From Dehalococcoidia bacterium (lineage in GTDB: Bacteria > Chloroflexota > Dehalococcoidia > Bin125): a DNA stretch of 64,000 nt. The translations under genes and the position numbers were made by a program. Each line of letters opens with the position of its first letter. Positions within the stretch are counted from its first letter, which is position 1. The notes beneath the pieces are model-generated. The model was not told where the DNA came from. It worked only from the letters and a program-made list of their open reading frames with translations, and ran no database searches. Where the stretch lies: contig OY820591.1 of assembly GCA_963555985.3 (NCBI GenBank), forward strand, positions 2,656,001 through 2,720,000. The letters are read 5' to 3'. Shown here piece after piece: positions 25,844 to 44,469 of this stretch.

Positions 25844-28800
25844 CTACCAGCTATCGATGTACGGCCGCCGGCCCTCACGAATCGGCTCCGAGTTCGGTAC
25901 CGCATCGAGCATCCGCACGATCCACTGGCGAGTCTCCGCCGGATCGATCACGTCGTCCGACTCCAGCACGGTCGCCGCATTGATCGCGTTGCCGCGCTCG
26001 TAGGCGTCGGCCACCATCTCCTCGTAGACGCGCGTTCGCTCTTCGAGGTCCTCGATCTGCTCAAGCTGCGCCCGCGCGCCGAGCTTGACCCCCGCTTCGA
26101 GGTTCATGCCGCCGTATTCGGCCGTTGGCCAGGCGATGTTGAACAGACCCGCCTCAGTACTGCCCGCGACCATCGCCAGCCCGCCCAGTCCGTAGCACTT
26201 GCGCAGTGTGATCGTCATCTTTGGAGCGGTCAGGTTCGCCAGCGAGACAAACACGCGATGGCAATGCCGCACCAGCGCCGTCTTCTCGATCTCGGGGCCG
26301 ACCATCATCCCCGGCGTATCCACCAACGTGATCACGGGGATATTCCAGCAGTCGCAGATCTGCGCGAAGCGCGCCAGCTTATCCGAGCCCGGACTGTCCA
26401 CCGCGCCGCCGAGATGCATGTTGTTGTTCGCGATCAGCCCCACCGGCCGGCCCTCGATCCGGGCCAGCGCGGTGACGACGCCGATCCCGAACTCGGGCCG
26501 CAGTTCCAGCACCGAGTCGTCGTCGGCTAGCAGGTCGATCACCTTACGCACGTCGTACGTCCGCAGTCGGTTTTCCGGGATCGCATGACGCAGCAGCCGC
26601 TGGTCGGGACAGCTCCACTCCTTCACCCTGCCCTGGAAGTAGGAGAGGTACTTCTTGGTCGCAGCCATCGCCTCCTCTTCGTCCTTGACGAAGATGTCGA
26701 CGACCCCGTTCGGCACCTGCTGCGACATCGGCCCCAGCTCTTCCGGCAGGAAGAGGCCAAGTCCGCCGCCCTCGATCACGGCAGGGCCGCCCATGGCAAT
26801 GTTCGAGCCTTCAGTAGCCACGATGATGTCGCACATCCCCAGCATCGAGGCATTGCCGGCGAAGCAGCGTCCGGCCGTGATCGAGATCATCGGCACCCGG
26901 CCCGAGAGCTCGGCCAGGCGCTCGAAGGTCCGGACGTTGCGGGCGGCGACGCGGGTATAGGCCCAATCGCTATCGCCCGAGCGTCCGCCGGCGCCTTCGG
27001 CAATGAAGATCAGCGGCGTCAGCAGCCGGTGGGCCGTCTCAACCATGCGGTCGGTCTTCTCATGTCCACGCCCGCCCTGAGTCCCCGCCCAGACGGTCTC
27101 GTCGTAGGAGATGATCGCCGTCGATGCTTGATGGTTGTCGAACAAGTCGGCATTGACCGTACCGATCCCGCAGATCAAGCCATCCGCCGGCGAGACTCTG
27201 CGCAACTCTTCCCAGGAGCGCTTGCGCCGTTGCGCGGCCACACCGAGCGGCATGTACTCCGTCCAGCTGCCGCCCTCGACCAGCTGGGCGATGTTCTCGC
27301 GCGCCGTGCGCTTGCCCTTGGCATGGCGCCTTGCGACCGGACCGGGACGATTGCGATCTTCCAGCGCCTCGTGCAGGTCGATGTTGTGTTGGAGGTCGGG
27401 ACGGATGTGGTCGAGGTCGATCTCGCCGCCGCCGTCGTCGAGCGCGGGGCCTACATCCGCCGGCTCGATGAAGACGAGCGCGTGACTCTCCCAGATGATG
27501 TCGCCCACGCCGATCGTGATCTCTCGCACGATCCCGCCGACATCAGCGGTCAGCACGTGCTCCATCTTCATCGCGTTCATGATGATTACGTCCTGGCCGG
27601 CGACGACTTCATCGCCCTCGGCGACCAGGATCTCGATGATCGTGCCCTGGATCGGAGCGCGCAGCGCTTCGGTACCGGGCGGGCCGACGATGTCGGGCGC
27701 GTGTCCGATCTTCTGATCGGCTTCCAGTCCGCGATTCACGTCCAGCGAGGCTGCGCCGGCGCCCTGGCGGAAGAAGTCGAGCGCCGCGAGCGGGTCAGCG
27801 AGCTGGTTCTCGACTTTTGCGCCCGCCCAGGCCGCGTCGGTACCGGCTGCGGCGCCATTCTCCGAGCTGGCCGCCAGTTCGCCAATTCGGTCGTCGATCC
27901 AGCGGGTGTGTACATCGCCGCTGAGGAATTCAGGGTGAGAAAGGATGTTGCGCAAGAAGGGAAGATTGGAGTCCGGTCCCTCGAGCTCAAACTCGTCCAA
28001 GGCGCGGCGGGCGCGGCGCACCGCGTCGGAAAACCCGCCGGAAGGCGTGCGCGCGATCACCTTAGCGATCAGCGAGTCGAAGTTGGGGTTCGCGGCATAG
28101 CCCGCATAGCCGTAGGAATCGACGCGAATCCCCGGGCCGGCTGGAGGGCGGAAGCTGCGCAATGCTCCGGCGGCCGGACGCACATCGCCGTCCTCGCGCA
28201 TTCGCTCCAGATTGACCCGCGCCTGAAGCGCGTAACCGCGTCTCGGCGGCGGCGGTACCAGACCGAGGTCGGAGAGCGCCGCGCCCTCCGCGATTCGGAG
28301 TTGGCATTCGACCAGATCGAGTCCGGTGACTTCCTCGGTCACGGTGTGCTCGACTTGCAGCCGCGCATTGGCCTCAATAAACGCGAATTCGGCGTTGGTC
28401 TCGGCATCAACCAGAAACTCGAAGGTGCCAAGGTTCGTATAGCCGCCTGCCCCAGCCAGTTGTACGGCTGCGCTCGTGATTCGCTCTCTGAGATCGTCGC
28501 TCAGCGTGGGACTGGGCGCGATCTCAATCAGCTTCTGGTAGCGGCGCTGGATCGTGCACTCACGCTCGCCGACGTGAGCCACGCCGCCGTGTTGGTCGGC
28601 CACGATCTGGACTTCGATATGGCGCGCTCTGGGAATGAACCGCTCCACAAACAGCGCGCCGTTGCCGAATGCGGCCTGCGCCTCGCGGGTGCAGCCCTCA
28701 AAGGCGTCTCCGATCTCGTCTGCGCTCGTGATCGCACGCATCCCGCGACCGCCGCCGCCTGCGACCGCCTTGATCACCATCGGGCGGCCGTCCAACTGCT

Positions 28801-29242
28801 CGAAAAACGCGCGAGCGCCGTCCAGATCAACCGCGTGGTCGCTGCCGCTCAGAATCGGCACGCCGCGTGCGGCTGCGAGGGTACGCGCGCGAGCCTTGTC
28901 CCCGAACAGCGCGAGCGCCGCCGGGGATGGCCCGACGAACGTGATCCCGGCCTCTTCGCAAGCGCGGGCGAAGTCGGCATTCTCGGCCAGGAAGCCGTAG
29001 CCCGGGTGGATGGCGTCGCACTCGTACTCTTGCGCGCGTTCGATGATCTGCGCGATATCGAGATAGGCGGCGGGGCCAATGCCGTCGAGCACGATCGTAG
29101 TATCGGCGTGCTGAATATGCTGCGAACCGGCATCATCGGAGGAGTGAATGGCGGCGGTTGAGAGCTCAAGTTCGGCAGCAGTGCGGAGGATGCGGATGGC
29201 GATTTCGCCGCGGTTGGCGACGAGGAGGCGTGAGATAGGCAT
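25844..29242 (-). CDS. Single-chain biotin-dependent acyl-CoA carboxylase (BC-BCCP-CT)
   Basis: LVANRGEIA, HPGYGFLAEN, GGGGRGM, RLQVEH (BC); AMKM biotinylation site; C-terminal carboxyltransferase (GTQG, DTPG). Confidence 0.93.
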   Translation of the reverse strand: MPISRLLVANRGEIAIRILRTAAELELSTAAIHSSDDAGSQHIQHADTTIVLDGIGPAAYLDIAQIIERAQEYECDAIHPGYGFLAENADFARACEEAGITFVGPSPAALALFGDKARARTLAAARGVPILSGSDHAVDLDGARAFFEQLDGRPMVIKAVAGGGGRGMRAITSADEIGDAFEGCTREAQAAFGNGALFVERFIPRARHIEVQIVADQHGGVAHVGERECTIQRRYQKLIEIAPSPTLSDDLRERITSAAVQLAGAGGYTNLGTFEFLVDAETNAEFAFIEANARLQVEHTVTEEVTGLDLVECQLRIAEGAALSDLGLVPPPPRRGYALQARVNLERMREDGDVRPAAGALRSFRPPAGPGIRVDSYGYAGYAANPNFDSLIAKVIARTPSGGFSDAVRRARRALDEFELEGPDSNLPFLRNILSHPEFLSGDVHTRWIDDRIGELAASSENGAAAGTDAAWAGAKVENQLADPLAALDFFRQGAGAASLDVNRGLEADQKIGHAPDIVGPPGTEALRAPIQGTIIEILVAEGDEVVAGQDVIIMNAMKMEHVLTADVGGIVREITIGVGDIIWESHALVFIEPADVGPALDDGGGEIDLDHIRPDLQHNIDLHEALEDRNRPGPVARRHAKGKRTARENIAQLVEGGSWTEYMPLGVAAQRRKRSWEELRRVSPADGLICGIGTVNADLFDNHQASTAIISYDETVWAGTQGGRGHEKTDRMVETAHRLLTPLIFIAEGAGGRSGDSDWAYTRVAARNVRTFERLAELSGRVPMISITAGRCFAGNASMLGMCDIIVATEGSNIAMGGPAVIEGGGLGLFLPEELGPMSQQVPNGVVDIFVKDEEEAMAATKKYLSYFQGRVKEWSCPDQRLLRHAIPENRLRTYDVRKVIDLLADDDSVLELRPEFGIGVVTALARIEGRPVGLIANNNMHLGGAVDSPGSDKLARFAQICDCWNIPVITLVDTPGMMVGPEIEKTALVRHCHRVFVSLANLTAPKMTITLRKCYGLGGLAMVAGSTEAGLFNIAWPTAEYGGMNLEAGVKLGARAQLEQIEDLEERTRVYEEMVADAYERGNAINAATVLESDDVIDPAETRQWIVRMLDAVPNSEPIREGRRPYIDSW

Positions 29243-30473: not shown

Positions 30474-31556
30474 TCAGCTCCCGCCGACCGCCTCCGCGAT
30501 CATCCCGCCCAACGCCGCCGTAGCCAACGGCTCATCCCCCTCCGAGGCCAAGTCCGCCGGGCGGTGACCGGCGGCCAGCGTAGCCATCACCGCCTGCTCA
30601 ATCGCCGATGCCTCCTCCTCCAGACCAAAGGAGTAGCGCAGCATCAGCGCCGCGCTCAGAATCATCGCCATCGGATTGGCGATCCCCTGACCGGCGATAT
30701 CCGGCGCAGTACCGTGAATCGGCTCGTAGAGACCGCTCGAACCTGCGCCCAACGACGCCGACGGCAGCATCCCCATCGATCCCGCCAGCATCGACGCCTC
30801 ATCCGTGAGAATGTCGCCGAACATGTTCTCCGTCACGATCACGTCGAAGTAGGACGGGTGCCGGATCAAGTCCATCGCGCAAGCGTCGACCAGGCGGTGC
30901 TCCAGCGTGACGTCCGGGTACTCAGGAGCGATCTCGTCGGCGATCTCGCGCCACATCCGCGAGGTATCGAGGATGTTCGCCTTATCCACCGAGGTCAGCA
31001 AGCCGCGCCGCGCTCGCGCCGTCTCGAAGCCCAGCCGCACGATCCGCTCCACCTCCGGTTCGGAGTACGCGAGCGTATCCACCGCCTTCCGTTCGCCATC
31101 CTCTTCCCAGCGCCGCTGCGGTTCGCCGAAGTAAATGCCCCCGGTCAACTCGCGCAGCACGACCATATCGACCGCCTCCACCGTCTCGCGCTTGAGCGGC
31201 GTGCTGTCCGCCAGAATCGGCAGCATCTTCACGGGGCGAATATTGGCGAACAGCCCCAAACCCTTACGCAGACCCAAAATCGCCTGCTCCGGACGCACGC
31301 TCGCCTTCGGGTCGTCCCATTTCGGGCCGCCCACCGCGCCGAACAGCACCGCGTCCTGCGCCTTGCACATCTCCAGCGTTTCGTCGCGCAGCGCGACGCC
31401 GTGCGCATCGATCGAGGCTCCGCCGACCAGATCTTCGGTGTAGGCGAAGGAGTGATCGAAGCGTCCCCCAACCGCATCGAGCACGCGCACAGCTTGAGCG
31501 ATCACTTCGCCGCCGATCCCGTCGCCGGGTAGCAGCGCGATGTCGTAATGGGCCAT
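30474..31556 (-). CDS. leuB: 3-isopropylmalate dehydrogenase
   Basis: LPGDGIG.EV, GAVGGPKWD, RELTGGIYFG, NMFGDILTD, LYEPIHGTAPDIAG. Confidence 0.98.
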   Translation of the reverse strand: MAHYDIALLPGDGIGGEVIAQAVRVLDAVGGRFDHSFAYTEDLVGGASIDAHGVALRDETLEMCKAQDAVLFGAVGGPKWDDPKASVRPEQAILGLRKGLGLFANIRPVKMLPILADSTPLKRETVEAVDMVVLRELTGGIYFGEPQRRWEEDGERKAVDTLAYSEPEVERIVRLGFETARARRGLLTSVDKANILDTSRMWREIADEIAPEYPDVTLEHRLVDACAMDLIRHPSYFDVIVTENMFGDILTDEASMLAGSMGMLPSASLGAGSSGLYEPIHGTAPDIAGQGIANPMAMILSAALMLRYSFGLEEEASAIEQAVMATLAAGHRPADLASEGDEPLATAALGGMIAEAVGGS

Positions 31557-31568
31557 ATCTCGGTATTC

Positions 31569-31772
31569 CTAATCGTCGCTTGAGCGCTCAGCCTGAGCGC
31601 GCTCCGCTGTCACTCAACAGCCGGGATCGCCGTAGTTGCCGCAGCAGTTGTCGAGTCTGCGCAGCTTAATCCAGTTGTTCGCCAAGAGCCCGCGAACGGC
31701 GTCGCGCAGACTCTCGGCGCGGCGCAGATTGACAAGCGAGTCCCTGAACGAAGGAGTCGGATGCCGCCCCAT
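31569..31772 (-). CDS. Small CCGxYGxPGC protein 1; candidate selenoprotein (TGA 31614-31616 read as Sec, extended to TAG 31569)
   Basis: MGRHPTPSFRDSLVNLRR...NCCGNYGDPGC-[TGA]-VTAERAQAERSSDD*; hairpin GCGCTCA-GGC-TGAGCGC with loop about 20 nt after the TGA. Without readthrough the CDS is 31614..31772. Confidence 0.65.
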
Positions 31773-31884
31773 GTTCAAGCTCCGTTCGCGCCTGCTTGCA
31801 CAGCCATGGTATCGCCGCCCGCCCCAGCAGGCCGACAAAACAACCGCGCGATCTCGCAACAGACCAAGCCCCCAGTCCCCAGCC

Positions 31885-32091
31885 CTACTCCTCCGGCGGA
31901 CGCTCAGCCTGAGCGCGTTCCGCCGTCACTCAACAGCCCGGCGCGCCATAGTCGCCGCAGCAGCTTCGGCGCCTCCACAGCCGATCCCAAGCGATAATCA
32001 GCAGACCCACGGCGACTCCAAGGCCGCTGTGACCGGCGCGGCGCAGATTGGCGATCGTATCGCCGAAGGAGGGAGCAAGCCGCCGCCTCAA
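31885..32091 (-). CDS. Small CCGxYGxPGC protein 2 (not in ORF track); candidate selenoprotein (TGA 31930-31932)
   Basis: TTG 32091 with GGAGG RBS; (M)RRRLAPSFGDTIANLRR...SCCGDYGAPGC-[TGA]-VTAERAQAERPPEE*; same hairpin. Without readthrough 31930..32091. Confidence 0.6.
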
Positions 32092-32107: not shown

Positions 32108-33163
32108 TCAATCAGTCCCGCCCTGGCAGCCGTCCGGATCAGGATAGAACTGCGCGCAATAGGCCCGAAAGGCCATGATCTCGCCGTCCGAACGGCACAG
32201 ACGCGGACGCGACAGGTAGCGTTTGCGCCCCCAGATCACCTGATCCTGCCGCACTCCGTGCAGTTGCTCCGCGATCAGGAACTTGTTCACGAGCGGCGCG
32301 CGCAACGGCCGCGGCAGAAAACCCAGCCCCGCGAACCGGCGTTTGGGCCGCCGGATCTCGCGCACTTGCGTGACCAGCGTCAGCTCGATCAGCGTCCCGT
32401 CGACCGGCGTGGCCAGCGTCCACAGCCGCGTCTCCATATCGACCGAGCGCTCGTGAACCTCCACAAAGGAATAGCCCAGCCCCACCGCCGTCACCTTGAC
32501 GAACATGTCGTAGCCGCGAACCGGCACGCCGGCGTAGTGCACATCAGGCTTGAAGCTGAAGGCCGTGCGCAGCACCGGACCATCGACCGACACATCACCC
32601 ACCTGCTCCACATTGTCGAAGCCGTGTACGTAGGTCAGGTGCGCCAGGTCGACGGCGTTCTCAGTCGTCTCCTGGGGATGGCCCCGAAAGCGCGTCTTCC
32701 GAATCTCCACACCGCTCCAGTCGTCTTGATCCGGCTCCTCCGCTGGCAGCCGCCATTGCGGCTCGCGACCGCCCAACCCCCACCAGGCGAAAATCTGCCC
32801 CGCGATCTCCTGCGTCTCATAGACGCCCAACCGCGCCGAGCGCGGCGGCGCCGCGAACGGCGTCGCCACGCACTGCCCCCCGCTCTCGAACTCGAAGCCG
32901 TGGAACGGGCACACCAGCCGGCCCCCGCGCACGCGCCCGCCCGCCTCCGGACTCAGATTGGAGCCGAGATGCGGGCAATGCGCAGCGGCGACGCAAATCT
33001 TCCCCTGCTCGTCGCACCAGACGACGATCTCCTCGCCCATCCAGGTCTTGCCCAACAGCTTCGCCCGCTCCACTTCCCGACGGCTCGCGACGAAATACCA
33101 GCCCTCGGGAAACGGATACGGCGATTGGCGGTCTGCGGGCGCTCCCGGTCGAGTCTGCTGCAT
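32108..33163 (-). CDS. Rieske non-heme iron oxygenase (KshA / Neverland-like)
   Basis: YPFPEGWY, Rieske ligands CPHLG...CPFHG, mononuclear iron motif ENAVDLAHLTYVH. Confidence 0.88.
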   Translation of the reverse strand: MQQTRPGAPADRQSPYPFPEGWYFVASRREVERAKLLGKTWMGEEIVVWCDEQGKICVAAAHCPHLGSNLSPEAGGRVRGGRLVCPFHGFEFESGGQCVATPFAAPPRSARLGVYETQEIAGQIFAWWGLGGREPQWRLPAEEPDQDDWSGVEIRKTRFRGHPQETTENAVDLAHLTYVHGFDNVEQVGDVSVDGPVLRTAFSFKPDVHYAGVPVRGYDMFVKVTAVGLGYSFVEVHERSVDMETRLWTLATPVDGTLIELTLVTQVREIRRPKRRFAGLGFLPRPLRAPLVNKFLIAEQLHGVRQDQVIWGRKRYLSRPRLCRSDGEIMAFRAYCAQFYPDPDGCQGGTD

Positions 33164-33399
33164 GCGGCGCTCCGTATCCAGCATAGTCAGAGGCGGCAAT
33201 TCAGGTTGCTGGTCTGCCGACCTGTAATTATGTGACCAACCGGTTCCGCGCAATCCCCGCACGTTCGTGAAGTCACTCGAACTTTACTCTGCAATCTCTC
33301 GAATCATCTGATGTTCGTACAAACCCTCGTGCATTTCTCGGGAGATGCTAGACTTGCCTCAATGGGGCGAACTGGAGCAGCCTGCGAGGGACAACGCTG

Positions 33400-35448
33400 A
33401 TGGTGCTTGCGACAGACGCTTCGACAGGCCGCGCGGCCGGCGCGGCAACGCCGTCGTTCACCCTGCCTGACGAACTGGTCCTGATGCTGCTCAACGAAGA
33501 GAGCGGCTACTTCTACCAGGTACCGGGCTGGAGCATGAACTGCGCCCTGGTCGGCGCAGCGATCGCCGAACTCTCCTTCATCGGCCGCATCGACAGCGAT
33601 ATCGAGTCGCTGATCTTGCTGGACGCCACCGAGACCGGCGATCCCAACCTGGACCCGATCCTGCGTGAGATCGCGGCGGAATCGCAGCAACACAATATCC
33701 GCTACTGGATCGAACGACTCGCGCCGCAGGCCGAAACGATCGTCCAGCAGACGCTGGATCGCCTCATTGAGCACGGCGTCCTCGAACACCATCCCGGCGA
33801 GTTCTGGACGATCTCCCAGTTCGCCTTGCAGTCCCTCGTCGAGCACGACGGCGAGCGCGTCGAGTTCGTCAAAACCCGCGTCCGCCGAATCATCTTCGCC
33901 GATCAACTGCCCGACCCGCGCGACGTGATCATCATCGCCCTCGCCAATGCCTGTGGTGTACTCCGATACATCTACGAACTCAACGAGCCCTTTCCCGAGC
34001 GCATCCAGTGGATCAGCCGCATGGACCTGATCGGCCAGGCGATTGGCGAGGCGGTCGCCGATAGCATCGCCGCGCCGGTGCTGCGTCACGCCCCCTTGAC
34101 CAAGCCGATCCCCAACGTCCCGCTGCGCGAACTGGCCTTCAATCGTCATCTCCGCGCCGGCCGGCTGCCGGCGTTTTTCGCCTCGCTCGCCGAGAAGCAT
34201 GGCCCGGTCTTCCAGATCCGCCCTCCCTTCCGCGACCCCATGATCGTGCTCGCCGGTCTGGAAACGAACCAGTGGGCTCATCGCCAGGGGCGGCTGCACC
34301 TGCGCTCGCAGGATTACTTCCAGGAGGTCAACCGAGTCTACGGCTCGGCCCGCTCGATCCATTCGATGGACGGCGCCGACCACTTCCGCTATCGCAAGAC
34401 GATGCAGCCGGCCTATTCGCGGGAGATGCTGGTCGAGCGGCTCAACGAGACCTATGACAATGCGCGCGCGCATCTGGCCACCTGGCAGGTCGGCGACGCG
34501 CTCCCGGCCCAGCAGATGCTGCGGCCGCTGATGAACGCCCAAGTCTCGCCGCTCTTGACCAGCACCCACACCCAAGACTTGATCGACAATGTCCTGAAAC
34601 ACAAGATGCGGGTGCTCAACGTCGGCCTGGTCAAGCTCCTGCCCAAGTTCATGCTGCGTACCCCGATGGCGCGGCGGCGGGCAAAGGTCACCGACCAGCT
34701 GACCGAGCGCATCATGGAAGCGCACACCCCCGGCCAACGCGCGGGACAACCCCGAGACGTGGTCGACGACTACCTGAGCCTGCACGCCTCCGATCCCCAA
34801 TTCCTGCCCGAGACCGACCTCGGCGTGCCGATGGGCACGATGTTGATGGCCAGTATGTACATGGGCGATCAACTCGGCTTTGCCCTCTATGCCCTGGTCA
34901 GGGATCCCGAGCTCTACGCGCGCGTCGAAGCCGAAGCCGACGCCCTCTTCGCCAACGGCGACCCGACCGAGACCGACCTCACCCTCGAGAACATCGACGT
35001 GACCCACCGAGTGTTGATGGAGAGCCTGCGGCTCACCCCGATCGTGCCGATGGCGATGCGCACCGTGATGAACACCTGCGTGGTCGAGGGCTGCGAACTG
35101 CCGGTCGGCGCCTCGGTCTACATCGCCAATACGGCCGCGCACTACATGGGGAGCGTCTTCCCGAACCCCTGGAAGTTCGATATCGACCGCTATCTGCCGC
35201 CGCGCAACGAGCATGCCGGCGAAGGCTATTCACCCTACGGACTGGGCACGCACGCCTGCCTCGGCTTCCGCTGGTCCGAACTGCACCTGGCGCTCAACCT
35301 GCTGATGCTGACGCACTACTTCAAGCTGGAGTTCGCCCGTCCCTACAAGCAGCTGCCGATGGACCCCTTCCCCTCCCAGTCGCCCAGCAACAAACTCAAA
35401 TTCCGCATCGCCCAGCAACGCCACCCCCTGCCCGCAGCCCCCGCTTGA
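33400..35448 (+). CDS. GPP34/GOLPH3-like domain fused to cytochrome P450
   Basis: N-terminal ~220 aa TLPDELVLMLL..ESG...ALVGAAIAEL...GRI (GPP34-like); C-terminal ESLR (ExxR), FDIDRY, YGLGTHACLG heme motif. Confidence 0.85.
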   Translation: MVLATDASTGRAAGAATPSFTLPDELVLMLLNEESGYFYQVPGWSMNCALVGAAIAELSFIGRIDSDIESLILLDATETGDPNLDPILREIAAESQQHNIRYWIERLAPQAETIVQQTLDRLIEHGVLEHHPGEFWTISQFALQSLVEHDGERVEFVKTRVRRIIFADQLPDPRDVIIIALANACGVLRYIYELNEPFPERIQWISRMDLIGQAIGEAVADSIAAPVLRHAPLTKPIPNVPLRELAFNRHLRAGRLPAFFASLAEKHGPVFQIRPPFRDPMIVLAGLETNQWAHRQGRLHLRSQDYFQEVNRVYGSARSIHSMDGADHFRYRKTMQPAYSREMLVERLNETYDNARAHLATWQVGDALPAQQMLRPLMNAQVSPLLTSTHTQDLIDNVLKHKMRVLNVGLVKLLPKFMLRTPMARRRAKVTDQLTERIMEAHTPGQRAGQPRDVVDDYLSLHASDPQFLPETDLGVPMGTMLMASMYMGDQLGFALYALVRDPELYARVEAEADALFANGDPTETDLTLENIDVTHRVLMESLRLTPIVPMAMRTVMNTCVVEGCELPVGASVYIANTAAHYMGSVFPNPWKFDIDRYLPPRNEHAGEGYSPYGLGTHACLGFRWSELHLALNLLMLTHYFKLEFARPYKQLPMDPFPSQSPSNKLKFRIAQQRHPLPAAPA

Positions 35449-35632
35449 TCCCCCCCTTGAGAGCCTGTCCCCGCGCAGGCGGGGAGGGAGATGCCCCAAC
35501 GGGGCAGAGGGGGTGAAAACCCCACACCCAGCACAGACGCTGCAACCCAGATCCCCGCTCCTCCAACCTACAATCGATCTCCCCCTTGAGGGGGAGATGC
35601 CCCAGAGGGGCAGAGGGGGTGAGAACCCCACA
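35449..35632 (+). repeat. Two REP-like double-hairpin repeats (family A), the first with a nested palindrome
   Basis: CTCCCCCTTGAGGGGGAG-ATGCCCC..GGGGCA-GAGGGGGTGA; nested GAGCCTGTCCCCGCGCAGGCGGGGA at 35461; lies between convergent genes. Confidence 0.85.
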
Positions 35633-35673
35633 CCCGGCATAGACGCTCCAATTCAACTCCTCAACACCCAGCC

Positions 35674-38118
35674 CTACGGCGCGTCCCCCGCCGCCTCGTC
35701 GGACTCGCCCCACAGCCGCTCCAACCTCGAACGCAGGCGCATGTTCTGATACGCACCCCAGATCGTCATCGCCGGCGGAACCAGCACGGTCGAGACGATC
35801 AGCGCATAAGCGATCGTGATCGCCGCCGTGATCCCGAACTCCTGAATTGAAATCAGCGGAGAGAAAATCAGCACGCCCAGCCCAAGCGCCGTCGTCAGAG
35901 CCGAACCCAGCAACGCCGAACCGGTCGTCCCCAGCGTGCGGATCGCCGCCTGCTCCGGGTTGCGCAGGCGCGTGTACTCCTCCCGATAACGATGAATCAC
36001 GTGGATCGTGTAGTCCACGCCGATCCCGATCGAGAGCGCGGTGATCATGGACGTGACCAGCGTGTAGGGAATGCCGAACAGCGCCATCGTGCCCAGCACC
36101 CAGAGCAACGCCAGCACAATCGGCGCGACCGCGATCACCGCCAGCGCCGGTTGCCGCAAGGTGACCCAGAAGAACACGATCAGAATGACTAGCGCGACCA
36201 CAATCGTCGTCGCGATCGCCTCCGTCTGCCGGCTTGTGATCTCGTCCGTCACCGCGACCGAGACGATACTCTCGGACGCCGCCGTGATCGCGTCGTCGTC
36301 GCCACCCCAGAGCGCTTCCAGTTCGCCCTGGATCTGCTTGGTGCGATCGGGATCGAGCACATAGGCCGGAAATTGCACCAGGATCGTATCGATCCCGGCC
36401 GGATCGTTGACCAGATGATCCGCGAGCGAAGGATCAACTCGCTCCAGCCCGTCGAGCAAGTCCTGCGTCCGCTCAGGATCAACCCCCAATTGGGCCGCGT
36501 CGTTGTCGAACAGCGCCGCCAGACCCGCGTCGTAACGGTCGCCGGGTTCGCCGCTGTCATCGATCCAGTCGTAAGCCAACTGCTCGTAGGAGCCCTCGAG
36601 CGGCCCGACGGCCGCAGCCGGGCGGCGCTGCTCGTCCTCGAACGCGAGCCGCAGCTCTCGCAGATTCAGCAACGTGCGCGTCTCCGTCGCTTCGGCCTCG
36701 ATCAGGACGTTGATCAACTGCGTAGAGCCGCCCACCGCCGCCTCCACCGTGTCCAGATCCTCCAACACCTCGCCCCCGCGCGGCAAAATATCGCGGATGC
36801 TGAACCGCGCTTCGATCCCCGTCGCCGCAATCCCGAGCCCGATCGACACGGCCGCAACGGCGATGATGTAGGGCGCAGGCCGGCGCGTCACCGAGCGGCC
36901 CAGCGCTTCCGCCGCCCGCTCCACCCCCGGCAGCGCGTTTGCAACCAGCCGCGGCTGCGTCAGACCGTCTCGAGCCTCGCGCCGGCGATCCAGAATCACC
37001 CGCGCCGCCGGAATCAGCGTCAGCATCACGATCAAACTCAGACCCACCCCCAGACCGGCCACGATCCCGAAGTCGTTGACCGCCGGAATCGGCGAGATCA
37101 AAGCCACCAGGAAACTCACGATCGTCGTCACCGCCGCCAGCGTCAGCGGGACCAGCACGTGGCGCAGACCGGCCCGCACCGCCTCCAGCGCCGGACGATC
37201 GGCAATACGTTGCTCGCGATAGTGCGAGACCGCCTGAATCGCGTAGTCCACCGTCAGACTGATCACGATGATCGGAATCATCACCGTGAGACCATTGGGC
37301 GGCCCGATCAGGTTCAGCGCATCCGGACCCAACCAACCCTCGATCCCAATCACCCAGATCAGCGACATCAGCAGCCCGCCCAGCGTCAGCAACAAATCCG
37401 AAATCGAGCGCAGGAAAATCAGCACCAAGACCGCGATCACGATCAGCGACGCCGCGATCAGCGTCCCGACTCCGTCCCGGCCGGCGCGATACTCGTCCTC
37501 GATCAGCGTCGGCGACACGCTGCTCACGCTCAGCGCCCCCGCGTCCTCGGAGGCCAACTCGTGGATGCGGCGCTCAGCCCGCTGGAGCCGCTCGTCGCCC
37601 GGATCACGCAGCCGAATCGTCGCAATCGCAATCGGCGTGCCGTCCGTGTCGGTACCCGTCATCGCCGCCAGCCCCGGCGCAATCTGCGGCGCAGCCGAAA
37701 CCTCGTCAATCTGCCCCTGCGAGACCGACTCGAAACCCTCCACTTGCAGCGCCGCCCCCAGCAGCCACGCCGGCGAGACCACCGGATCCGCCTCCACCAG
37801 CAGCCCGCGCACCTCCTCGTCGCCAACGATCCGATCGCTCAACGCCTGCATCTGCGCGAGCCCGGCCGGCGTCAGCGACTCCCCCCGAAACACCAGCGTC
37901 GTCGTGCTCACCTGACCAGACGCCGCGAACTGTTCCTCGATCCGCTCCATCGCCGCCACGATCGGGCTGTCGGGCGGGAAAAAACCGTCCGTCTCGTCCA
38001 ACGCCGCCCGCTGCGGCACCCCCGCCGCCAGCACCACCGTGACGACGACCAACACGCCAATCGTCAAATACGGACGAGCCGTAATCACGCGGCTCAGGTT
38101 GTCGAGTATCGGAGGCAT
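35674..38118 (-). CDS. MMPL/RND-family transporter
   Basis: Two hydrophobic repeats with SLTVDYAIQ / GIGVDYTIH motifs and large extracytoplasmic loops. Confidence 0.9.
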   Translation of the reverse strand: MPPILDNLSRVITARPYLTIGVLVVVTVVLAAGVPQRAALDETDGFFPPDSPIVAAMERIEEQFAASGQVSTTTLVFRGESLTPAGLAQMQALSDRIVGDEEVRGLLVEADPVVSPAWLLGAALQVEGFESVSQGQIDEVSAAPQIAPGLAAMTGTDTDGTPIAIATIRLRDPGDERLQRAERRIHELASEDAGALSVSSVSPTLIEDEYRAGRDGVGTLIAASLIVIAVLVLIFLRSISDLLLTLGGLLMSLIWVIGIEGWLGPDALNLIGPPNGLTVMIPIIVISLTVDYAIQAVSHYREQRIADRPALEAVRAGLRHVLVPLTLAAVTTIVSFLVALISPIPAVNDFGIVAGLGVGLSLIVMLTLIPAARVILDRRREARDGLTQPRLVANALPGVERAAEALGRSVTRRPAPYIIAVAAVSIGLGIAATGIEARFSIRDILPRGGEVLEDLDTVEAAVGGSTQLINVLIEAEATETRTLLNLRELRLAFEDEQRRPAAAVGPLEGSYEQLAYDWIDDSGEPGDRYDAGLAALFDNDAAQLGVDPERTQDLLDGLERVDPSLADHLVNDPAGIDTILVQFPAYVLDPDRTKQIQGELEALWGGDDDAITAASESIVSVAVTDEITSRQTEAIATTIVVALVILIVFFWVTLRQPALAVIAVAPIVLALLWVLGTMALFGIPYTLVTSMITALSIGIGVDYTIHVIHRYREEYTRLRNPEQAAIRTLGTTGSALLGSALTTALGLGVLIFSPLISIQEFGITAAITIAYALIVSTVLVPPAMTIWGAYQNMRLRSRLERLWGESDEAAGDAP

Positions 38119-38192
38119 GGTTCAGCAGGATAATCGAGCTCCGCAAACACCCGCCGTTGACCCCATCTCCGCGCCGTGTCTAGAGTGTCGCC

Positions 38193-39860
38193 ATGCCGAC
38201 ACTCGAATTCAAGGGCAAACAGCACATTTACGCGCATCACCTGACCGTGCCCTACAGCCCGCTCGTGGTCGACCCGCAGAAGAGCCACCCTCCCGCCGCG
38301 AGCGCCGACGACGCCGAGCTCGTGCCCGACGACAACCTGATCATCCACGGCGACAACCTCCGCGCGCTCAAAGCCCTACTCCCCCGCTACGCCGGCAAGG
38401 TCAACTGCATCTACATCGACCCGCCCTACAACACCGGCAACGAAGGCTGGATCTACAACGACAACGTCAACAGCCCGATGATGAAGCAGTGGTTGGAGGA
38501 TAACAGCCCGGTCGACAACGAAGACCTGGAACGTCACGACAAATGGCTTTCCATGATGTGGCCTCGAATGCAGCTGTTCCACGAGCTACTGACACAGGAT
38601 GGTGTGATCTTCGTTTCGATCGATGACAACGAGCAAGCACACCTTAGGGCGTTGATGGACGAGATATTCGGCGAAGAGAACTTCCTCGCCACGCTGATCT
38701 GGCAGCATCGGACGGGGCGAAGCAACAACGCGCGACGATTCTCAAATCAAAGGGAGATGATCCACGTATACAGGCGTTCCCCAGAGGTGGACTACATTCG
38801 AGTCGCTCGATCAGCAGCGCTAGATGACACGTACTCGAATCCGGACGACGATCCGAACGGTCCTTGGACCTCGGCATCGTACGTGAATCCGGCGACTAAA
38901 GAGAAGCGACCTAACCTCGTCTACGATATCGCCAACCCACATACCGGCAGCCGAGTGTCGCACCCGACCCATGCTTGGAAATACAGTTACGAAACGCACT
39001 TAGAACACGTGCGTGACGAAAGGCTGTACTGGGGAGCCGATGGGAACATGAGATATCCGCGGTTGAAAAACTACTTACGGAATGCAACCGGCATTGTGCC
39101 TATCGATCTGACCCTTTCTGCGGAATCGGGCACGACTGATGCTGGAACACGACTACTTAATTCGATTTTCGATAGCACTGATGTGTTTCCTAATCCCAAG
39201 CCGGTCGACTTGATCGCCCACTGCATTAGGGTCTCAGACGGCGTAGAACGAAGTCTGCAAGAGGGAAGTACGATCATCCTCGACTCGTTCGCCGGCAGCG
39301 GCACCACCGCCCACGCCACGCTCGCCCTGAACAACGAGGACGGCGGCAACCGACGCTTCATCCTCGTCGAATGCGAGGACTACGCCGACTCGATCACCGC
39401 CGAGCGCGTCCGCCGCGTGATCGGCGGCGTGCCCGAGGCCAAGGACAAGGCTCTGAAGGCTGGGCTCGGCGGCTCGTTCACCTACTGCACCCTGGGTGAT
39501 CCGTTCGACGCGGAAAGCCTGCTCAACGGCGAGGGCCTGCCCGACTATGAGACCCTGGCCGTCTTCCTGCTGCACACGGCGGCCGGCCTCTCGCTCGAAC
39601 CCGACGCACTGCGCACCGCCCGCAACGACCAGCGCTTCTACCGGACCGAGACGACCGACTATTACCTCTACTACGAACCCGACATCGAGTGGCTCAAGGG
39701 CGACGAGGCGATGCTGACGCCCGAACGGGCGAAGCAGATCCAGGCGGTTGGCAAACCGGCGACCGTGTTCGGCGCGGGCAAGTACCTGAGCCAGCGTGAG
39801 TTGACCGAGATGGGCATCACCTTCTGCCAGCTCCCCTACGAACTGTTCAAGGGCGGCTAG
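38193..39860 (+). CDS. mod: Type III restriction-modification methyltransferase (Mod)
   Basis: MPTLEFKGK, IIHGDNL, IYIDPPYNTG, IFVSIDDNE, PKPVDLI, ILDSFAGSGTT (beta-class order). Confidence 0.92.
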   Translation: MPTLEFKGKQHIYAHHLTVPYSPLVVDPQKSHPPAASADDAELVPDDNLIIHGDNLRALKALLPRYAGKVNCIYIDPPYNTGNEGWIYNDNVNSPMMKQWLEDNSPVDNEDLERHDKWLSMMWPRMQLFHELLTQDGVIFVSIDDNEQAHLRALMDEIFGEENFLATLIWQHRTGRSNNARRFSNQREMIHVYRRSPEVDYIRVARSAALDDTYSNPDDDPNGPWTSASYVNPATKEKRPNLVYDIANPHTGSRVSHPTHAWKYSYETHLEHVRDERLYWGADGNMRYPRLKNYLRNATGIVPIDLTLSAESGTTDAGTRLLNSIFDSTDVFPNPKPVDLIAHCIRVSDGVERSLQEGSTIILDSFAGSGTTAHATLALNNEDGGNRRFILVECEDYADSITAERVRRVIGGVPEAKDKALKAGLGGSFTYCTLGDPFDAESLLNGEGLPDYETLAVFLLHTAAGLSLEPDALRTARNDQRFYRTETTDYYLYYEPDIEWLKGDEAMLTPERAKQIQAVGKPATVFGAGKYLSQRELTEMGITFCQLPYELFKGG

Positions 39861-39863
39861 ACC

Positions 39864-42431
39864 ATGCAGCTCAAGGAATACCAGTCCGAGGCGCTTGACA
39901 CGTTCAGCCTCTGGCTGCGCGCGCTCGAACAGGCCCAAACCAAATCGCAGGCCGCAGCCGCAGCCCTGCGCGACGTCGGCCTCGATCCGCCGGAGGACGT
40001 CACCAACTATCCCAAGCAGGCCTGGCAGTCTCTGCGCGACGAGGGAGAACTGCCCGCCGGAGCCGGCGCCTACGTCTCACGCACCGACGACGCCGATCGC
40101 CCGATCCCCCACGTCTGCTTCAAAGTCCCCACCGGCGGCGGCAAAACCCTGCTCGCCGCCGCCGCACTGGAACGGCTCGGGCGCTCCACTGGCTTCACCC
40201 TCTGGATCGTCCCCACCCGCGCCATCTACGACCAGACCAAACGCGCCCTCTGGGATCGCGAACACCCCTACCGCCAGATGCTCGAACGCGCCAGCGGCGG
40301 GCGCGTCAAGCTGCTCGAAAAAGACGACCCATTCACTGCACAGGATGTCGAGCACTACCTCTGCATCATGCTGCTGATGCTGCCCGCCGCCAACCGCCAG
40401 CGCGGACGCGACTTCCTCAGAATGTTCCGCGACAGCGGCCGCTATGAGTCCTTTTTCCCTGAACGCGACATGGCGTTGGCCGACCAACAGTTGCTCAATC
40501 AATACCCCGACCTGGAGCGCGCCACGACCGAGGGGCCGGTCAAGGAAAGCCTGTTCAACGTCTTCAAGATGCTCCGCCCGATCGTCGTGCTGGACGAAGC
40601 GCACAAAGCCTACGGCAAGCGTCAAGACGCCAACCAAGAGTTCGTGCGTTCCGTCAACCGCCTCGATCCGCAACTCGTGATCGAACTCTCCGCCACGCCC
40701 AATCGAGGGATCAGCAATCTACTAGTCGATATCGACGGCCCCGCGCTGCACAACGAGGAGATGATCAAGCTGCCGGTACAGGTAGCGACCACGCAGAACG
40801 ACGACTGGCCCTCCACGTTGCAACGGGCGCACGACGAGTTGGAGCGTCTGCAACAGGCCGCCCGCGAACTCGAAGAGAACGAGGGCCGCTACATCCGCCC
40901 GATCGCGGTCGTGCGGGTCGAGCGCACCGGCAAGGATCAACGCGACGGAGAGCGCATCCACGCCGAAGACGCGCGCGAGGCGCTGCAACAACTCGGCGTG
41001 CCCGCCGACCAGATCGCCATCCAGGCCAGCGGTCAGCACGACCTCAAGGACGTCGATCTGCTCTCGCCCCTGATCCCGATCCGCTGGATCATCACCAAAG
41101 CGGCCTTGATGGAAGGCTGGGACTGCTCCTTCGCCTCGCTGCTGGTGCTGCTCGACAACACCCGCGCCCAGACCGCGATCACGCAGCTGATCGGCCGCGT
41201 CATGCGCCAGCCCCACGCCAAGAGGACCGGCCGCACGGAACTGGATCAGTGCTACGTCCACTGCTTCAACACCGATGTCGGCGACGCTGTGGCCAGCGTC
41301 AAGCTGGGCCTGGAAAACGAGGGCTTGACCGGCTTGTCCGACCTCGTCCTGACCGCCGGCGGCCAACTCCAGTCCACCACCATCTCCCGTCGCGAGCAGT
41401 TTCGCAACGAGACCATCTTTCTCCCGCTCGTCACTCACCGCGACGGCGCCGGTTGGCGCGAACTCAGCTACGCCCGCGACCTGCTGCGCGAAGTCGATTG
41501 GGAGCAAATCGGCCCGCCCGACATCCAGGCGGCGACCGGCGGCGGCGCATCCATCTCCCGAGCCACCGTCATGCTCGGCGAGCACGGCCTCACCCCGCAA
41601 TACGATCAGCCCCGCCGGATCGAGGTCGACACGAGCGTCAAACTCTCCTGGTACACGCGCCGTCTGGCGGACGTAGTTCCCAATCCCTGGCAAGCGGGTC
41701 GGATCGTCGAAGACATGATCGAGCGGCTGCGCGAGGCCGACCAGTCGGACGACGACATCTACGGTCAGCGCTCCCACATCGCCGCCGTCCTGCGCGAACA
41801 CGTCACAGAAGCGATCCACCAACAGACGGAACAGATCTTTAAGCGCAAGCTGCGCCACGGTGAAGCCAGGTTCGATCTCACCACCGACATCAAGCACCGA
41901 CTCCGCGAGGAGTCCTACGAAGTCCTCTACAACGAAGCAACCGACGCTCCGCTCGATCGTCGGCCCGACAAGCCGCTGCAACTGAGCCTGTTCACGCCGC
42001 AGATGCGCAGCCAGTACGACTCCGATCTCGAGCGCCGCTTCGCGCGCTATCTCGATGAGCAACGAGCCATCCAGTGGTGGCACCGCATCGCCCTCCGGCA
42101 GCGCGGCGAGTACGCCCTCCGCGGCTGGAAGCAGTACCGCATCTGGCCCGACTTCATCGCCATCGCCACTCCGGCCGATCAAGGCAAACGCCTGCTCGTC
42201 TTCGAGACCAAAGGCGACCACCTCCGCGAAACGGACGACACCAAGTACAAGCAGAAGGTCTTCGAGACGCTCCAGTTGGCGTTCAATCGGCGCACACGAG
42301 AAGTCAACGAACAACCCCAAAACAGCTACGGCGCCGTCACAGTCCGCGACGGCCCGATCCGCGGCGCGTTCGAGTTGATCTTCGACGAACAACCCTTCAC
42401 TGCCGTAGAACGCGCGCTGGCGATCCCCTGA
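39864..42431 (+). CDS. res: Type III restriction endonuclease (Res), SF2 helicase plus nuclease
   Basis: VPTGGGKT, DEAH, LSATP, EGWDC, QLIGRVMR, C-terminal WPDF...FETKG; starts 3 nt after mod. Confidence 0.92.
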   Translation: MQLKEYQSEALDTFSLWLRALEQAQTKSQAAAAALRDVGLDPPEDVTNYPKQAWQSLRDEGELPAGAGAYVSRTDDADRPIPHVCFKVPTGGGKTLLAAAALERLGRSTGFTLWIVPTRAIYDQTKRALWDREHPYRQMLERASGGRVKLLEKDDPFTAQDVEHYLCIMLLMLPAANRQRGRDFLRMFRDSGRYESFFPERDMALADQQLLNQYPDLERATTEGPVKESLFNVFKMLRPIVVLDEAHKAYGKRQDANQEFVRSVNRLDPQLVIELSATPNRGISNLLVDIDGPALHNEEMIKLPVQVATTQNDDWPSTLQRAHDELERLQQAARELEENEGRYIRPIAVVRVERTGKDQRDGERIHAEDAREALQQLGVPADQIAIQASGQHDLKDVDLLSPLIPIRWIITKAALMEGWDCSFASLLVLLDNTRAQTAITQLIGRVMRQPHAKRTGRTELDQCYVHCFNTDVGDAVASVKLGLENEGLTGLSDLVLTAGGQLQSTTISRREQFRNETIFLPLVTHRDGAGWRELSYARDLLREVDWEQIGPPDIQAATGGGASISRATVMLGEHGLTPQYDQPRRIEVDTSVKLSWYTRRLADVVPNPWQAGRIVEDMIERLREADQSDDDIYGQRSHIAAVLREHVTEAIHQQTEQIFKRKLRHGEARFDLTTDIKHRLREESYEVLYNEATDAPLDRRPDKPLQLSLFTPQMRSQYDSDLERRFARYLDEQRAIQWWHRIALRQRGEYALRGWKQYRIWPDFIAIATPADQGKRLLVFETKGDHLRETDDTKYKQKVFETLQLAFNRRTREVNEQPQNSYGAVTVRDGPIRGAFELIFDEQPFTAVERALAIP

Positions 42432-42464
42432 AAATCGCTTCAGTCGCATGCGCCACCCCACCCC

Positions 42465-42705
42465 AAACCTGCTACCCTCAGAACAACCGTACCGCCCAAA
42501 CGCCCGGAAAGCGCCGGCTCATGATCCACCGTTCCCCGTTTTTCCCCGCTGCCGCCCCTCACTCACATCCAGCCGCGCCTGAACAAACCCGAACGAACCT
42601 GAATCCCCCGAACACGCAATTCCCCCGTAAAACACAGGAGATCAGCCCGTTCTTCCCCCACCCCCCGGCAAAGAAAAAAATTCTCCCTGAACACCCTGAA
42701 CGCCC
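42465..42705 (+). repeat. Dispersed CTGAAC-motif element, copy B
   Basis: CAGAACAACCGT...CCTGAACAAACCCGAACGAACCTGAA...AACACAGGAGATC...AAAAAAATTCTCCCTGAACACCCTGAAC. Confidence 0.65.
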
Positions 42706-42792
42706 GCCCAGCCGCCGCGCCGATCGCAGAGAGACGCCATGACCATCAAGCGCCTACCCTGGAACGCGAAGCCACCCGACAGGAGACCGCCC

Positions 42793-43200
42793 ATGGGCGC
42801 CGTCCAAGTCACCGTCACGATCCGCAACCCCGCCGACCGCAGCCGCGAGTGGAGCGGCCTCTTCCTCGTCGACACCGGCGCCACCGACAGCCTCGTGCCC
42901 AGAAAACACCTCGAGCAAATCGGCCTCGAGCCGATTGGAGGACGACAGTACGAGCTCGCCGACGGCAGCCCCCTCCGATTGCAAATTGGCGTCGCTGAAA
43001 TCGAGTTCATGGGTGAGGCCGTCGGCGGAACCGTCATGTTCGGCGACGACGACGCCGAGCCGCTCCTCGGCCTAACCGCGTTGGAGTCGGTCGGAATCGA
43101 GGTCGATCCCGTCAATCAGCGCCTCAAGCGTCTCCCCGCCGTCAGGCTCAAGCGCCTGCGCCCCTCCATCAATCCGCCTGAACAAACCCGAACGCCCTGA
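42793..43200 (+). CDS. Clan AA (retropepsin-like) aspartic protease
   Basis: LVDTGAT, YELADG, EPLLGLTALES.G.EVDP; AGGAG RBS before ATG 42793. Confidence 0.88.
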   Translation: MGAVQVTVTIRNPADRSREWSGLFLVDTGATDSLVPRKHLEQIGLEPIGGRQYELADGSPLRLQIGVAEIEFMGEAVGGTVMFGDDDAEPLLGLTALESVGIEVDPVNQRLKRLPAVRLKRLRPSINPPEQTRTP

Positions 43201-43207
43201 ACGCCGC

Positions 43208-43849: not shown

Positions 43850-43858
43850 GCTCCGATC

Positions 43859-44449: not shown

Positions 44450-44469
44450 AAGCGATTCCTCCCAAGAAT

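What the first reader, a model, noticed from the sequence alone, without database searches (positions are those of the whole stretch)
31569..32091. Tandem pair of small candidate selenoproteins ending CCGxYGxPGC-U with a SECIS-like hairpin
Seen in sequence: two paralogous ~52-53 codon genes (ATG 31772; TTG 32091 with GGAGG RBS, the second missing from the ORF track) end in CCG(N/D)YG(D/A)PGC-TGA. Their bodies have diverged substantially. After the TGA, both continue in frame for exactly 14 codons to a TAG: VTAERAQAERSSDD* and VTAERAQAERPPEE*. The first 10 codons are identical in protein, and all three nucleotide differences there are third-position synonymous (ACA/ACG, GAG/GAA, CGC/CGT). This segment holds a hairpin CGCTCA-GGC-TGAGCG whose G-containing loop is about 20 nt after the UGA. 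The extended ORF 1 stops 12 nt before the leuB ATG. Established: bacterial SECIS elements lie immediately 3' of the Sec UGA with a G-containing apical loop (E. coli fdhF loop region CAGGUCUG), and Cys-Sec dyads are redox/metal motifs. Inference: UGA is Sec, giving ~67-68 aa proteins with CC...CU that annotation would truncate. They may be redox or metal partners of the upstream Rieske oxygenase. I do not recognise a described selenoprotein family with this motif.
Basis: partly seen in the sequence, partly recalled or inferred. Interest (0 to 1): 0.9.

Follow-up and report, generated by a model that had tools for sequence, protein, structure and literature searches.

The report
Small CC…CU selenoprotein gene pair
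Two tiny neighbouring genes that annotation would cut short at a TGA codon very probably encode members of a widespread, apparently undescribed family of small selenocysteine-containing proteins whose function is still unknown.

Summary
Both minus-strand genes end ...CCGxYGxPGC-TGA, continue in frame for 14 codons to TAG, and carry a 7-bp hairpin with a GGC loop 20 nt after the TGA.

The selenocysteine reading is strongly supported.
- The genome has tRNA-Sec, selA, selB and a selD with its own in-frame TGA.
- Of 229 distinct homologous genes from genomes and metagenomes, found with patterns blind to the next codon, 222 have TGA there, 7 have Cys and none has TAA or TAG. Ordinary stops in the same loci are 44% TGA.
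- 172 of 218 family windows meet the published bacterial SECIS constraints, against 31 of 290 ordinary TGA stops. The stems differ between clades.
- The downstream frame looks coding, with third-position variation and in-frame His-rich tails.

The suggested link to the Rieske oxygenase fails: it is adjacent in 1 of 109 loci, while leuB follows in 84 of 109.

No Pfam, NCBIfam, PDB or Rfam match was found, and the motif is not in a 2026 catalogue of 119 selenoprotein families. Function is inferred only; the best guess is a Cys3-Sec metal or redox site.

The parts
31569..31772 (-). Copy 1: small selenoprotein gene, 52 codons + UGA(Sec) + 14 codons + TAG (67 aa)
   Evidence: homologues with the same layout
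31614..31616 (-). Copy 1 candidate Sec codon TGA after ...PGC
   Evidence: 222 TGA and 7 Cys among 229 distinct homologues
31584..31600 (-). Copy 1 SECIS-like hairpin: 7 bp, loop GGC, 20 nt after the TGA
   Evidence: -9.9 kcal/mol; model R1 scores 53.7 bits at 31572-31622
31885..32091 (-). Copy 2: paralogous small selenoprotein gene, TTG start, 53 codons + UGA(Sec) + 14 codons + TAG (68 aa)
   Evidence: orthologues of this paralogue type start with ATG at the equivalent place
31930..31932 (-). Copy 2 candidate Sec codon TGA
31895..31924 (-). Copy 2 SECIS-like hairpin: core 31900-31916 (7 bp incl. one G-U, loop GGC) plus a 5-bp lower stem
   Evidence: -21.7 kcal/mol for the 52 nt after TGA; -8.5 kcal/mol core; R1 52.2 bits
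30474..31556 (-). leuB (3-isopropylmalate dehydrogenase), starting 12 nt after the copy 1 TAG; the conserved downstream neighbour
   Evidence: 84 of 109 related loci

Best explanation
Both genes encode members of one family of very small selenoproteins, about 65-85 aa.

Supported by comparative evidence: the UGA after the invariant ...CC-x7-C is decoded as selenocysteine by the genome's SelA/SelB/SelC/SelD system. A bacterial SECIS hairpin about 18-20 nt downstream directs this. Translation then runs through the hairpin into a short acidic tail, which is His-rich in many relatives.

Predicted architecture: a basic two-helix N-terminal half, then a loop carrying the four invariant chalcogen residues (Cys-Cys ... 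Cys-Sec), then the tail.

Inferred only: the CC-x7-CU loop forms a Cys3-Sec site. It either binds a metal ion (my preferred reading, about 0.45) or cycles as a selenenylsulfide/disulfide redox centre (about 0.3). The His-rich tails would serve as auxiliary metal binding.

In this lineage the genes sit in the leucine operon directly upstream of leuB and are probably co-transcribed with it. The family also occurs in unrelated contexts, so a leucine-specific role is not implied.
For: 1. Machinery: tRNA-Sec at 74.3 bits with anticodon TCA; selA; selB at 348.8 bits; selD with an in-frame TGA in a ...CGG-U-GSK context.

2. Codon at the site, found with patterns blind to it: 38 of 38, 115 of 115 and 77 of 80 are TGA. 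Deduplicated, that is 222 TGA, 7 Cys and 0 other among 229 distinct genes. Ordinary stops of long ORFs in the same loci are TGA in 294 of 661.

3. True Cys forms read from DNA: L132, L142, L144, L150 and L237, L238, L244. Most stop 1 codon later. Two of the four Cys-form genomes tested (G047, G197) lack SelA.

4. Hairpin: the published bSECIS constraints (review PMC13188914, section 5) are met by 172 of 218 family windows, 31 of 290 ordinary TGA stops and 89 of 1090 shuffles. Spacing is concentrated at 18-20 nt. There are 53 distinct 5' stem arms. G lies in the first two loop positions in 183 of 185. All 10 genes whose frame stops within 6 codons keep the hairpin at the same distance.

5. Coding downstream: mean entropy by codon position is 0.27/0.31/0.75 in 31 distinct 14-codon extensions. 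Three or more His occur in 38 of 151 extensions in frame 0, against 6 and 4 in the other frames.

6. All 36 same-family genomes carry a homologue with the TGA. In a 401-genome sample of the phylum, 32 of 33 TGA-form genomes have SelA.

7. Structure model: pLDDT 78, helices 9-18, 22-39 and 56-65, with the Cys/Sec loop at 40-55.
Against: - No experimental evidence of any kind. No RNA run holds the locus, and there are no proteomic or 75Se data.
- 46 of 218 family windows fail my strict contiguous-stem version of the SECIS model.
- The single-consensus covariance alignment pairs only 66.8% of cells. A partner slide of -2 gives 65.0%, because clades differ in hairpin geometry.
- One TGA-form genome (G303, 95% complete, 220 contigs) shows only a 22-bit SelA fragment.
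- SelA is common in the phylum anyway (308 of 401), so co-occurrence is weak evidence.
- Relatives are not independent, and the two genome sets overlap.
- For function there is nothing beyond motif logic: no family, fold or conserved partner. His at the fourth motif position is not conserved, and the gene context varies between lineages.
Confidence: 0.88

Rival explanations
1. The TGA is an ordinary stop. The proteins are 52-53 aa, and the hairpin is a 3' RNA element (stability, processing or termination) duplicated along with the genes.
For: Gene callers end most database members exactly at ...PGC. Hairpins after stop codons are common: 31 of 290 ordinary TGA stops pass the same filter.
Against: - No TAA or TAG among 229 distinct genes, where about 56% would be expected.
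- Cys codons occur at exactly this site in 7 genes.
- The downstream frame shows third-position variation and in-frame His-rich tails.
- The hairpins are not followed by T runs and are not picked up by the terminator scan.
- The hairpin stays at a fixed distance from the TGA wherever the frame ends.
Confidence: 0.04
2. The UGA is read through or recoded, but not as Sec: near-cognate Trp/Cys/Arg read-through, or a lineage-specific reassignment.
For: Some metagenome gene calls read W at the site (P0017, P0102). These are most likely calls made with another translation table.
Against: - TGA is a regular stop in the window (17 of 41 long ORFs), so it has not been reassigned.
- The full Sec machinery is present.
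- The hairpin fits the SelB-type SECIS model.
- The only sense codon alternating with TGA is Cys, the classic Sec/Cys pair.
Confidence: 0.04
3. The small ORFs are regulatory leader ORFs of leuB. Translation, stalling at UGA or selenium status would tune leuB expression, and the peptides themselves would have no function.
For: leuB follows directly in 84 of 109 loci. In the window it starts 12 nt after the copy 1 TAG. leuD and leuC lie upstream on the same strand in relatives.
Against: - Four residues are invariant and the fold is conserved across 375 database clusters.
- The family occurs without leuB in many lineages, next to MFS transporters, a flavoprotein disulfide reductase, a Na+/H+ antiporter and others.
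- The ORFs are not enriched in Leu codons.
- There are 1-3 diverged paralogues per locus.
Confidence: 0.04

Closest known systems
Classical bacterial selenoprotein genes with an in-frame SECIS (for example E. coli formate dehydrogenases), as summarised in review PMC13188914 section 5
   Same: UGA followed within 16-37 nt by a small-loop hairpin with G in the first two loop positions. It is decoded by SelB with tRNA-Sec, and Cys homologues exist.
   Different: The protein is unrelated: a tiny non-enzyme-like protein with Sec near the C-terminus.
C-terminal-Sec families named by NCBI: 'UXX-star' (NF041114, NF041211) and 'KCU-star' (NF033934), listed in PMC13188914 Table 1
   Same: Sec lies a few residues from the end. 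In some members here the frame ends 0-6 codons after Sec and the hairpin lies beyond the stop.
   Different: None of 94 members scanned matches any NCBIfam model consistently. Most members continue for 13-20 or more codons.
SaoC 'Cys-Cys-COOH' selenoprotein (NF040734) and other CU-dyad families (SaoL, HgcA, MbdU) in PMC13188914 Table 1
   Same: A Cys-Sec dyad that alternates with Cys-Cys at or near the C-terminus. Those families are proposed to handle metals or organometallics.
   Different: No HMM match. I did not see Sao-type ABC or organometallic neighbours in the loci annotated.
C-terminal Gly-Cys-Sec-Gly redox tail of mammalian thioredoxin reductase (recalled; PMC10840350 seen only in a search listing)
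   Same: Adjacent Cys-Sec preceded by Gly, on a flexible C-terminal segment.
   Different: That tail belongs to a large flavoenzyme. Here the dyad is part of a CC-x7-CU loop in a free-standing mini-protein.
Cytoplasmic C-terminal tail of E. coli FeoB, CC-x7-CH after an Arg-rich stretch (abstract of PMC10647171)
   Same: Same spacing, CC-x7-C-[H/U], preceded by a basic segment. The FeoB peptide binds Fe(II), Zn(II) and Mn(II) in vitro.
   Different: This is a motif-level resemblance only. FeoB is a membrane transporter without Sec, and homology was not tested.
RsgA/YjeQ zinc knuckle (NF008931)
   Same: One of 92 members scanned hit this model at E = 2e-7. From recall, the RsgA knuckle reads C-x-H-x2-E-P-G-C, like the CCGHxGEPGC of many family members.
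   Different: Only 1 of 92 members hit. The His is replaced by Asn in the window's copies, and there is no GTPase domain. RsgA itself was not found in this genome.

Membership tests
Bacterial selenoprotein gene (SelB/SECIS-dependent UGA recoding) | In-frame UGA conserved among homologues, never replaced by another stop codon | tested here: met
   222 TGA, 7 Cys, 0 TAA/TAG among 229 distinct genes
Bacterial selenoprotein gene (SelB/SECIS-dependent UGA recoding) | Cys-containing homologues aligned with the UGA | tested here: met
   L132, L142, L144, L150, L237, L238, L244 read from DNA
Bacterial selenoprotein gene (SelB/SECIS-dependent UGA recoding) | bSECIS: loop of 3-9 nt, stem of 4 bp or more, G in the first two loop positions, 16-37 nt from the UGA, MFE <= -7.5 kcal/mol (PMC13188914, Fig. 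2 legend) | tested here: met
   Both window copies pass. 172 of 218 family windows pass, against 31 of 290 control stops. I used my own script; bSECISearch itself was not run.
Bacterial selenoprotein gene (SelB/SECIS-dependent UGA recoding) | Sequence downstream of the UGA evolves as coding sequence | tested here: met
   Codon-position entropy 0.27/0.31/0.75; His-rich tails only in frame 0
Bacterial selenoprotein gene (SelB/SECIS-dependent UGA recoding) | selA, selB, selC and selD in the genome | tested here: met
Bacterial selenoprotein gene (SelB/SECIS-dependent UGA recoding) | Selenium incorporation shown (75Se labelling or a mass-spectrometry peptide) | not testable with these tools
   No proteomic data; no RNA run holds the locus
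Curated NCBIfam selenoprotein families with CU or C-terminal Sec (SaoC NF040734, KCU-star NF033934, MbdU NF045648, CC/Se NF041239, UXX-star NF041114/NF041211) | Match to the family HMM | tested here: not met
   No NCBIfam hit at E <= 10 for the two window proteins. No shared hit among 92 members at E <= 1.
Pfam CCG cysteine-rich domain and other Pfam families | Match to a Pfam model | tested here: not met
RsgA-type zinc knuckle | Cys/His ligand pattern and HMM match | tested here: inconclusive
   1 of 92 members hits NF008931. No structural match, best Z 3.3.

The most novel reading that the evidence does not exclude
The family is a dedicated selenolate-based metal handler. A minimal basic helical hairpin presents a Cys3-Sec (CC-x7-CU) site plus a His-rich tail. 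It acts as a high-affinity chaperone or donor for a thiophilic metal such as Fe(II), Zn, Ni or Cu. In the Dehalococcoidia, where it sits between leuD and leuB, it may serve the oxidation-sensitive Fe-S isopropylmalate isomerase LeuCD. Sec would then be an obligatory metal ligand in a non-enzyme protein, which would explain why Sec outnumbers Cys by about 30 to 1 in the family.
Probability: 0.25. Interest if true: 0.8.

Novelty: new member of a known kind. Interest (0 to 1): 0.62.

Why it matters
- Annotation: the family is systematically truncated in databases. Most of the 375 clusters found at 50% identity end at ...PGC. Naming it would correct annotation in many Chloroflexota and Actinomycetota genomes, and in soil, sediment and marine metagenomes.
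- Biology: Sec is almost never replaced by Cys (222 to 7). This suggests selenium is chemically required rather than just advantageous. The invariant CC-x7-CU loop with His-rich tails points to metal or redox chemistry not yet described for selenoproteins.
- Resource: it adds natural SECIS hairpins with many different stems at a fixed spacing, which is useful for SECIS models and predictors.

Tried and rejected
Partner of the Rieske oxygenase: rejected. It is adjacent in 1 of 109 loci. In the window about 11.8 kb, including the Rieske and P450 genes, separates leuD (43865-44461) from the small genes.

Searches for a known family or fold, none of which gave a match:
- Pfam and NCBIfam.
- PDB by sequence.
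- Foldseek against PDB: best E 5.7.
- VIA-align wide: best Z 3.3, rmsd 4.9, 46 residues aligned.
- Rfam.

Single-consensus covariance model (R1/A4). Covariation score was 0.257 against 0.149 in shuffles (0 of 500 shuffles reached it). All 7 pairs show double changes. However, only 66.8% of cells are paired and a -2 slide gives 65.0%, because clades use shifted hairpin geometries. I therefore rely on the TGA-anchored scans.

Word-indexed protein search: only 4 hits.

Expression: no RNA holder is listed for the locus.

Literature:
- Motif strings (PGCU, GEPGCU, CCGNYG, CCGHPGEPGC, GDPGCU, GQPGCU) gave no relevant paper.
- I read PMC13188914 sections 5 and 7 parts 1-2, PMC12013277 section 7, and passages of PMC2398784 and PMC13326102.
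- Only the abstract of PMC10647171 was seen.
- Haft & Tolstoy 2025 (PMC12013261) is not held. Its families were seen only through the review's table and NCBIfam.
- Supplementary tables of deep-Sep, BSepDB and the GOS paper could list this family and could not be opened. The sequence of 'hypothetical protein GOS_A' was not seen.

Unpublished genomes:
- G327 contributes one locus (L143) to the counts.
- G283, G097, G201, G229 and G327 are in the SelA tally.

Full report
**What is in the window.** Two small genes lie in tandem on the minus strand, between a Rieske/KshA_C-type oxygenase gene (32108-33262) and leuB (30474-31556).
- Copy 2 runs from TTG 32091 to TGA 31932-31930.
- Copy 1 runs from ATG 31772 to TGA 31616-31614.
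- Both end ...CCG(D/N)YG(A/D)PGC-TGA and stay open for exactly 14 more codons to a TAG.
- The copy 1 TAG lies 12 nt before the leuB ATG.
- Twenty nt after each TGA there is a 7-bp hairpin with a GGC loop, at -9.9 and -8.5 kcal/mol. Copy 2 has an extra lower stem.
- The first 10 post-TGA codons of the two copies differ at three positions, all synonymous third positions.

**Can this genome make selenoproteins?** Yes.
- tRNA-Sec is present at 74.3 bits, and ARAGORN reads the anticodon TCA.
- selA and selB at 348.8 bits are present.
- selD carries its own in-frame TGA in a ...CGG-U-GSK context.
- TGA is otherwise a normal stop here: 17 of 41 long ORFs in the window end in TGA.

**The codon in relatives.**
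- All 36 genomes of the same GTDB family have a homologue whose match runs through one TGA. In the 30 loci fetched, 38 of 38 motif occurrences are followed by TGA.
- A scan of one genome per species, using a peptide pattern that stops before the codon, gave 79 loci. Their record titles are Dehalococcoidia or Chloroflexota MAGs, Tepidiformaceae, Ardenticatenaceae, Acidimicrobiaceae and Actinomycetota. There, 115 of 115 occurrences are Cys-TGA.
- A metagenome scan with a broader pattern gave 77 TGA and 3 Cys among 80.
- A 401-genome sample of the phylum found the family in 37 genomes: 33 with the TGA form, 3 with Cys, 1 undetermined.
- Deduplicated over everything: 229 distinct genes, of which 222 have TGA, 7 have Cys (TGC or TGT) and none has TAA, TAG or another sense codon. 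Ordinary stops of long ORFs in the same loci are TGA in 294 of 661.

The two genome sets overlap, and relatives are not independent. Even so, the absence of any other stop codon across clades with quite different flanking sequence is hard to reconcile with a plain stop.

The Cys forms mostly end one codon later (...PGCCE...PGCCD). G047 and G197, which have Cys forms, show no SelA. G085 and G299, also Cys forms, do have it.

**The hairpin.** I applied the four constraints of the published bacterial SECIS model (loop 3-9 nt, stem of 4 bp or more, G in the first two loop positions, 16-37 nt spacing, MFE <= -7.5 kcal/mol; review PMC13188914, section 5). I required contiguous stems.
- 172 of 218 distinct family windows pass.
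- 31 of 290 ordinary TGA stops and 89 of 1090 shuffles pass.
- Family spacings pile up at 18-20 nt, while control spacings are spread out.
- The stems are not one conserved sequence: there are 53 different 5' arms.
- G occupies the first two loop positions in 183 of 185.
- In the 10 genes whose frame ends 0-6 codons after the TGA, the hairpin is still at the same distance, now beyond the stop. So the hairpin is tied to the UGA, not to the coding sequence.
- The hairpins lack T tails and match no Rfam family.

A single covariance model fitted to all clades gave significant but untidy covariation (0.257 against 0.149; 66.8% of cells paired; the -2 slide gave 65.0%). The cause is shifted geometries between clades.

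**Is the extension translated?**
- In 31 distinct 14-codon extensions, entropy by codon position is 0.27/0.31/0.75.
- His-rich runs occur in frame 0 in 38 of 151 extensions, against 6 and 4 in the other frames.
- Many lineages have no start codon after the TGA, so a separate downstream ORF is not a general explanation.

**The protein.** The family is large: 375 clusters at 50% identity with E <= 0.001, and most are truncated at ...PGC.
- Invariant residues are the two adjacent Cys, the Cys before the UGA, the Sec/Cys site itself and a Gly. Nearly invariant are G, G, P and an Asn in helix 1.
- AlphaFold2 with 117 sequences gives pLDDT 78: helices 9-18 and 22-39, a loop at 40-55 carrying CC-x7-CU, and a helix at 56-65.
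- Nothing similar was found in Pfam, NCBIfam, PDB sequences or folds.

**Context.**
- The Rieske gene is adjacent only here (1 of 109 loci).
- leuB follows in 84 of 109 loci.
- In relatives, leuD (Aconitase_C) and leuC (Aconitase) lie upstream on the same strand. In some relatives a Uma2 gene lies in between.
- In this genome leuD is at 43865-44461, so about 11.8 kb has been inserted.
- Other lineages place the gene next to unrelated genes: a flavoprotein disulfide reductase, MFS_3 transporters, a Na+/H+ antiporter.

**Mechanism.**
- Supported by comparative evidence: SECIS-directed Sec insertion that yields 67-68 aa proteins.
- Inferred: the four chalcogen residues form a metal or redox site. 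Two motif-level leads favour metal binding. The E. coli FeoB tail has the same CC-x7-C-H spacing and binds Fe, Zn and Mn in vitro (abstract of PMC10647171). One member hit the RsgA zinc-knuckle model. The His-rich tails point the same way. None of this is a test.

**Novelty.** The motif is absent from the 119 families in the 2026 review's Table 1 and from NCBIfam release 20 and Pfam. Motif text searches found nothing. Supplements and one key 2025 paper could not be read, so prior listing in a large screen cannot be excluded.

Noticed in passing
G000:C1:1998583-1999506 (locus L019): The genome's selD has an in-frame TGA in a ...CGG-U-GSK context, so SelD is itself a selenoprotein here.
   Followed up: partly
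G000:C1:1680772-1681857 and G000:C7:5535-6620: selA appears twice with identical scores (415.6 bits) on two contigs. This could be a real duplication, or an assembly or contamination duplicate; the genome is rated 7.5% contaminated.
   Followed up: no
window 32108-44461: About 11.8 kb lies between leuD (43865-44461, minus strand) and the small genes. It includes the Rieske/KshA_C oxygenase (32108-33262) and a P450-like ORF (33400-35448, plus strand). In relatives leuD is 0.1-2 kb upstream, so this looks like an insertion into the leu operon.
   Followed up: partly
window 31569-31616 and 31885-31932: The two paralogues are 54% identical as proteins, yet the first 33 nt after the TGA differ at only 3 positions. 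In other genomes the paralogues carry different hairpins. This suggests gene conversion of the 3' ends in this genome.
   Followed up: no
L087:2963-3628 and about 18 related loci: A Uma2-family (putative restriction endonuclease) gene is inserted between leuD and the small selenoprotein genes in some relatives.
   Followed up: no
L144 and L237 (Cys forms): These Cys-form genes (...PGCCE-stop) still have a SECIS-like hairpin with a CGTGA-type loop at the usual distance. This is possibly a relic of a recent Sec-to-Cys change.
   Followed up: no
L079:4561-4611: One paralogue has a run of C right after the TGA that shifts the downstream frame. It is either an assembly error or a decaying copy.
   Followed up: no
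whole genome G000: No match to RsgA (TIGR00157) in a genome rated 96% complete.
   Followed up: no
window 25844-29242 (minus strand): An 1132-aa fused biotin carboxylase / biotin carrier / carboxyltransferase ORF lies downstream of leuB. Its homologue is conserved in that position in 36 related loci.
   Followed up: partly
window 31843-31860 (minus strand): A terminator-like hairpin with a T-rich tail lies between copy 2 and copy 1. The scan found 2 such sites in the region against 1.8 expected by chance.
   Followed up: no
L146:11-1480 and L147: In two closely related small genomes, a class-I pyridine nucleotide-disulfide oxidoreductase gene starts right after the small selenoprotein gene. 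It is a possible redox partner, but only in that lineage.
   Followed up: partly
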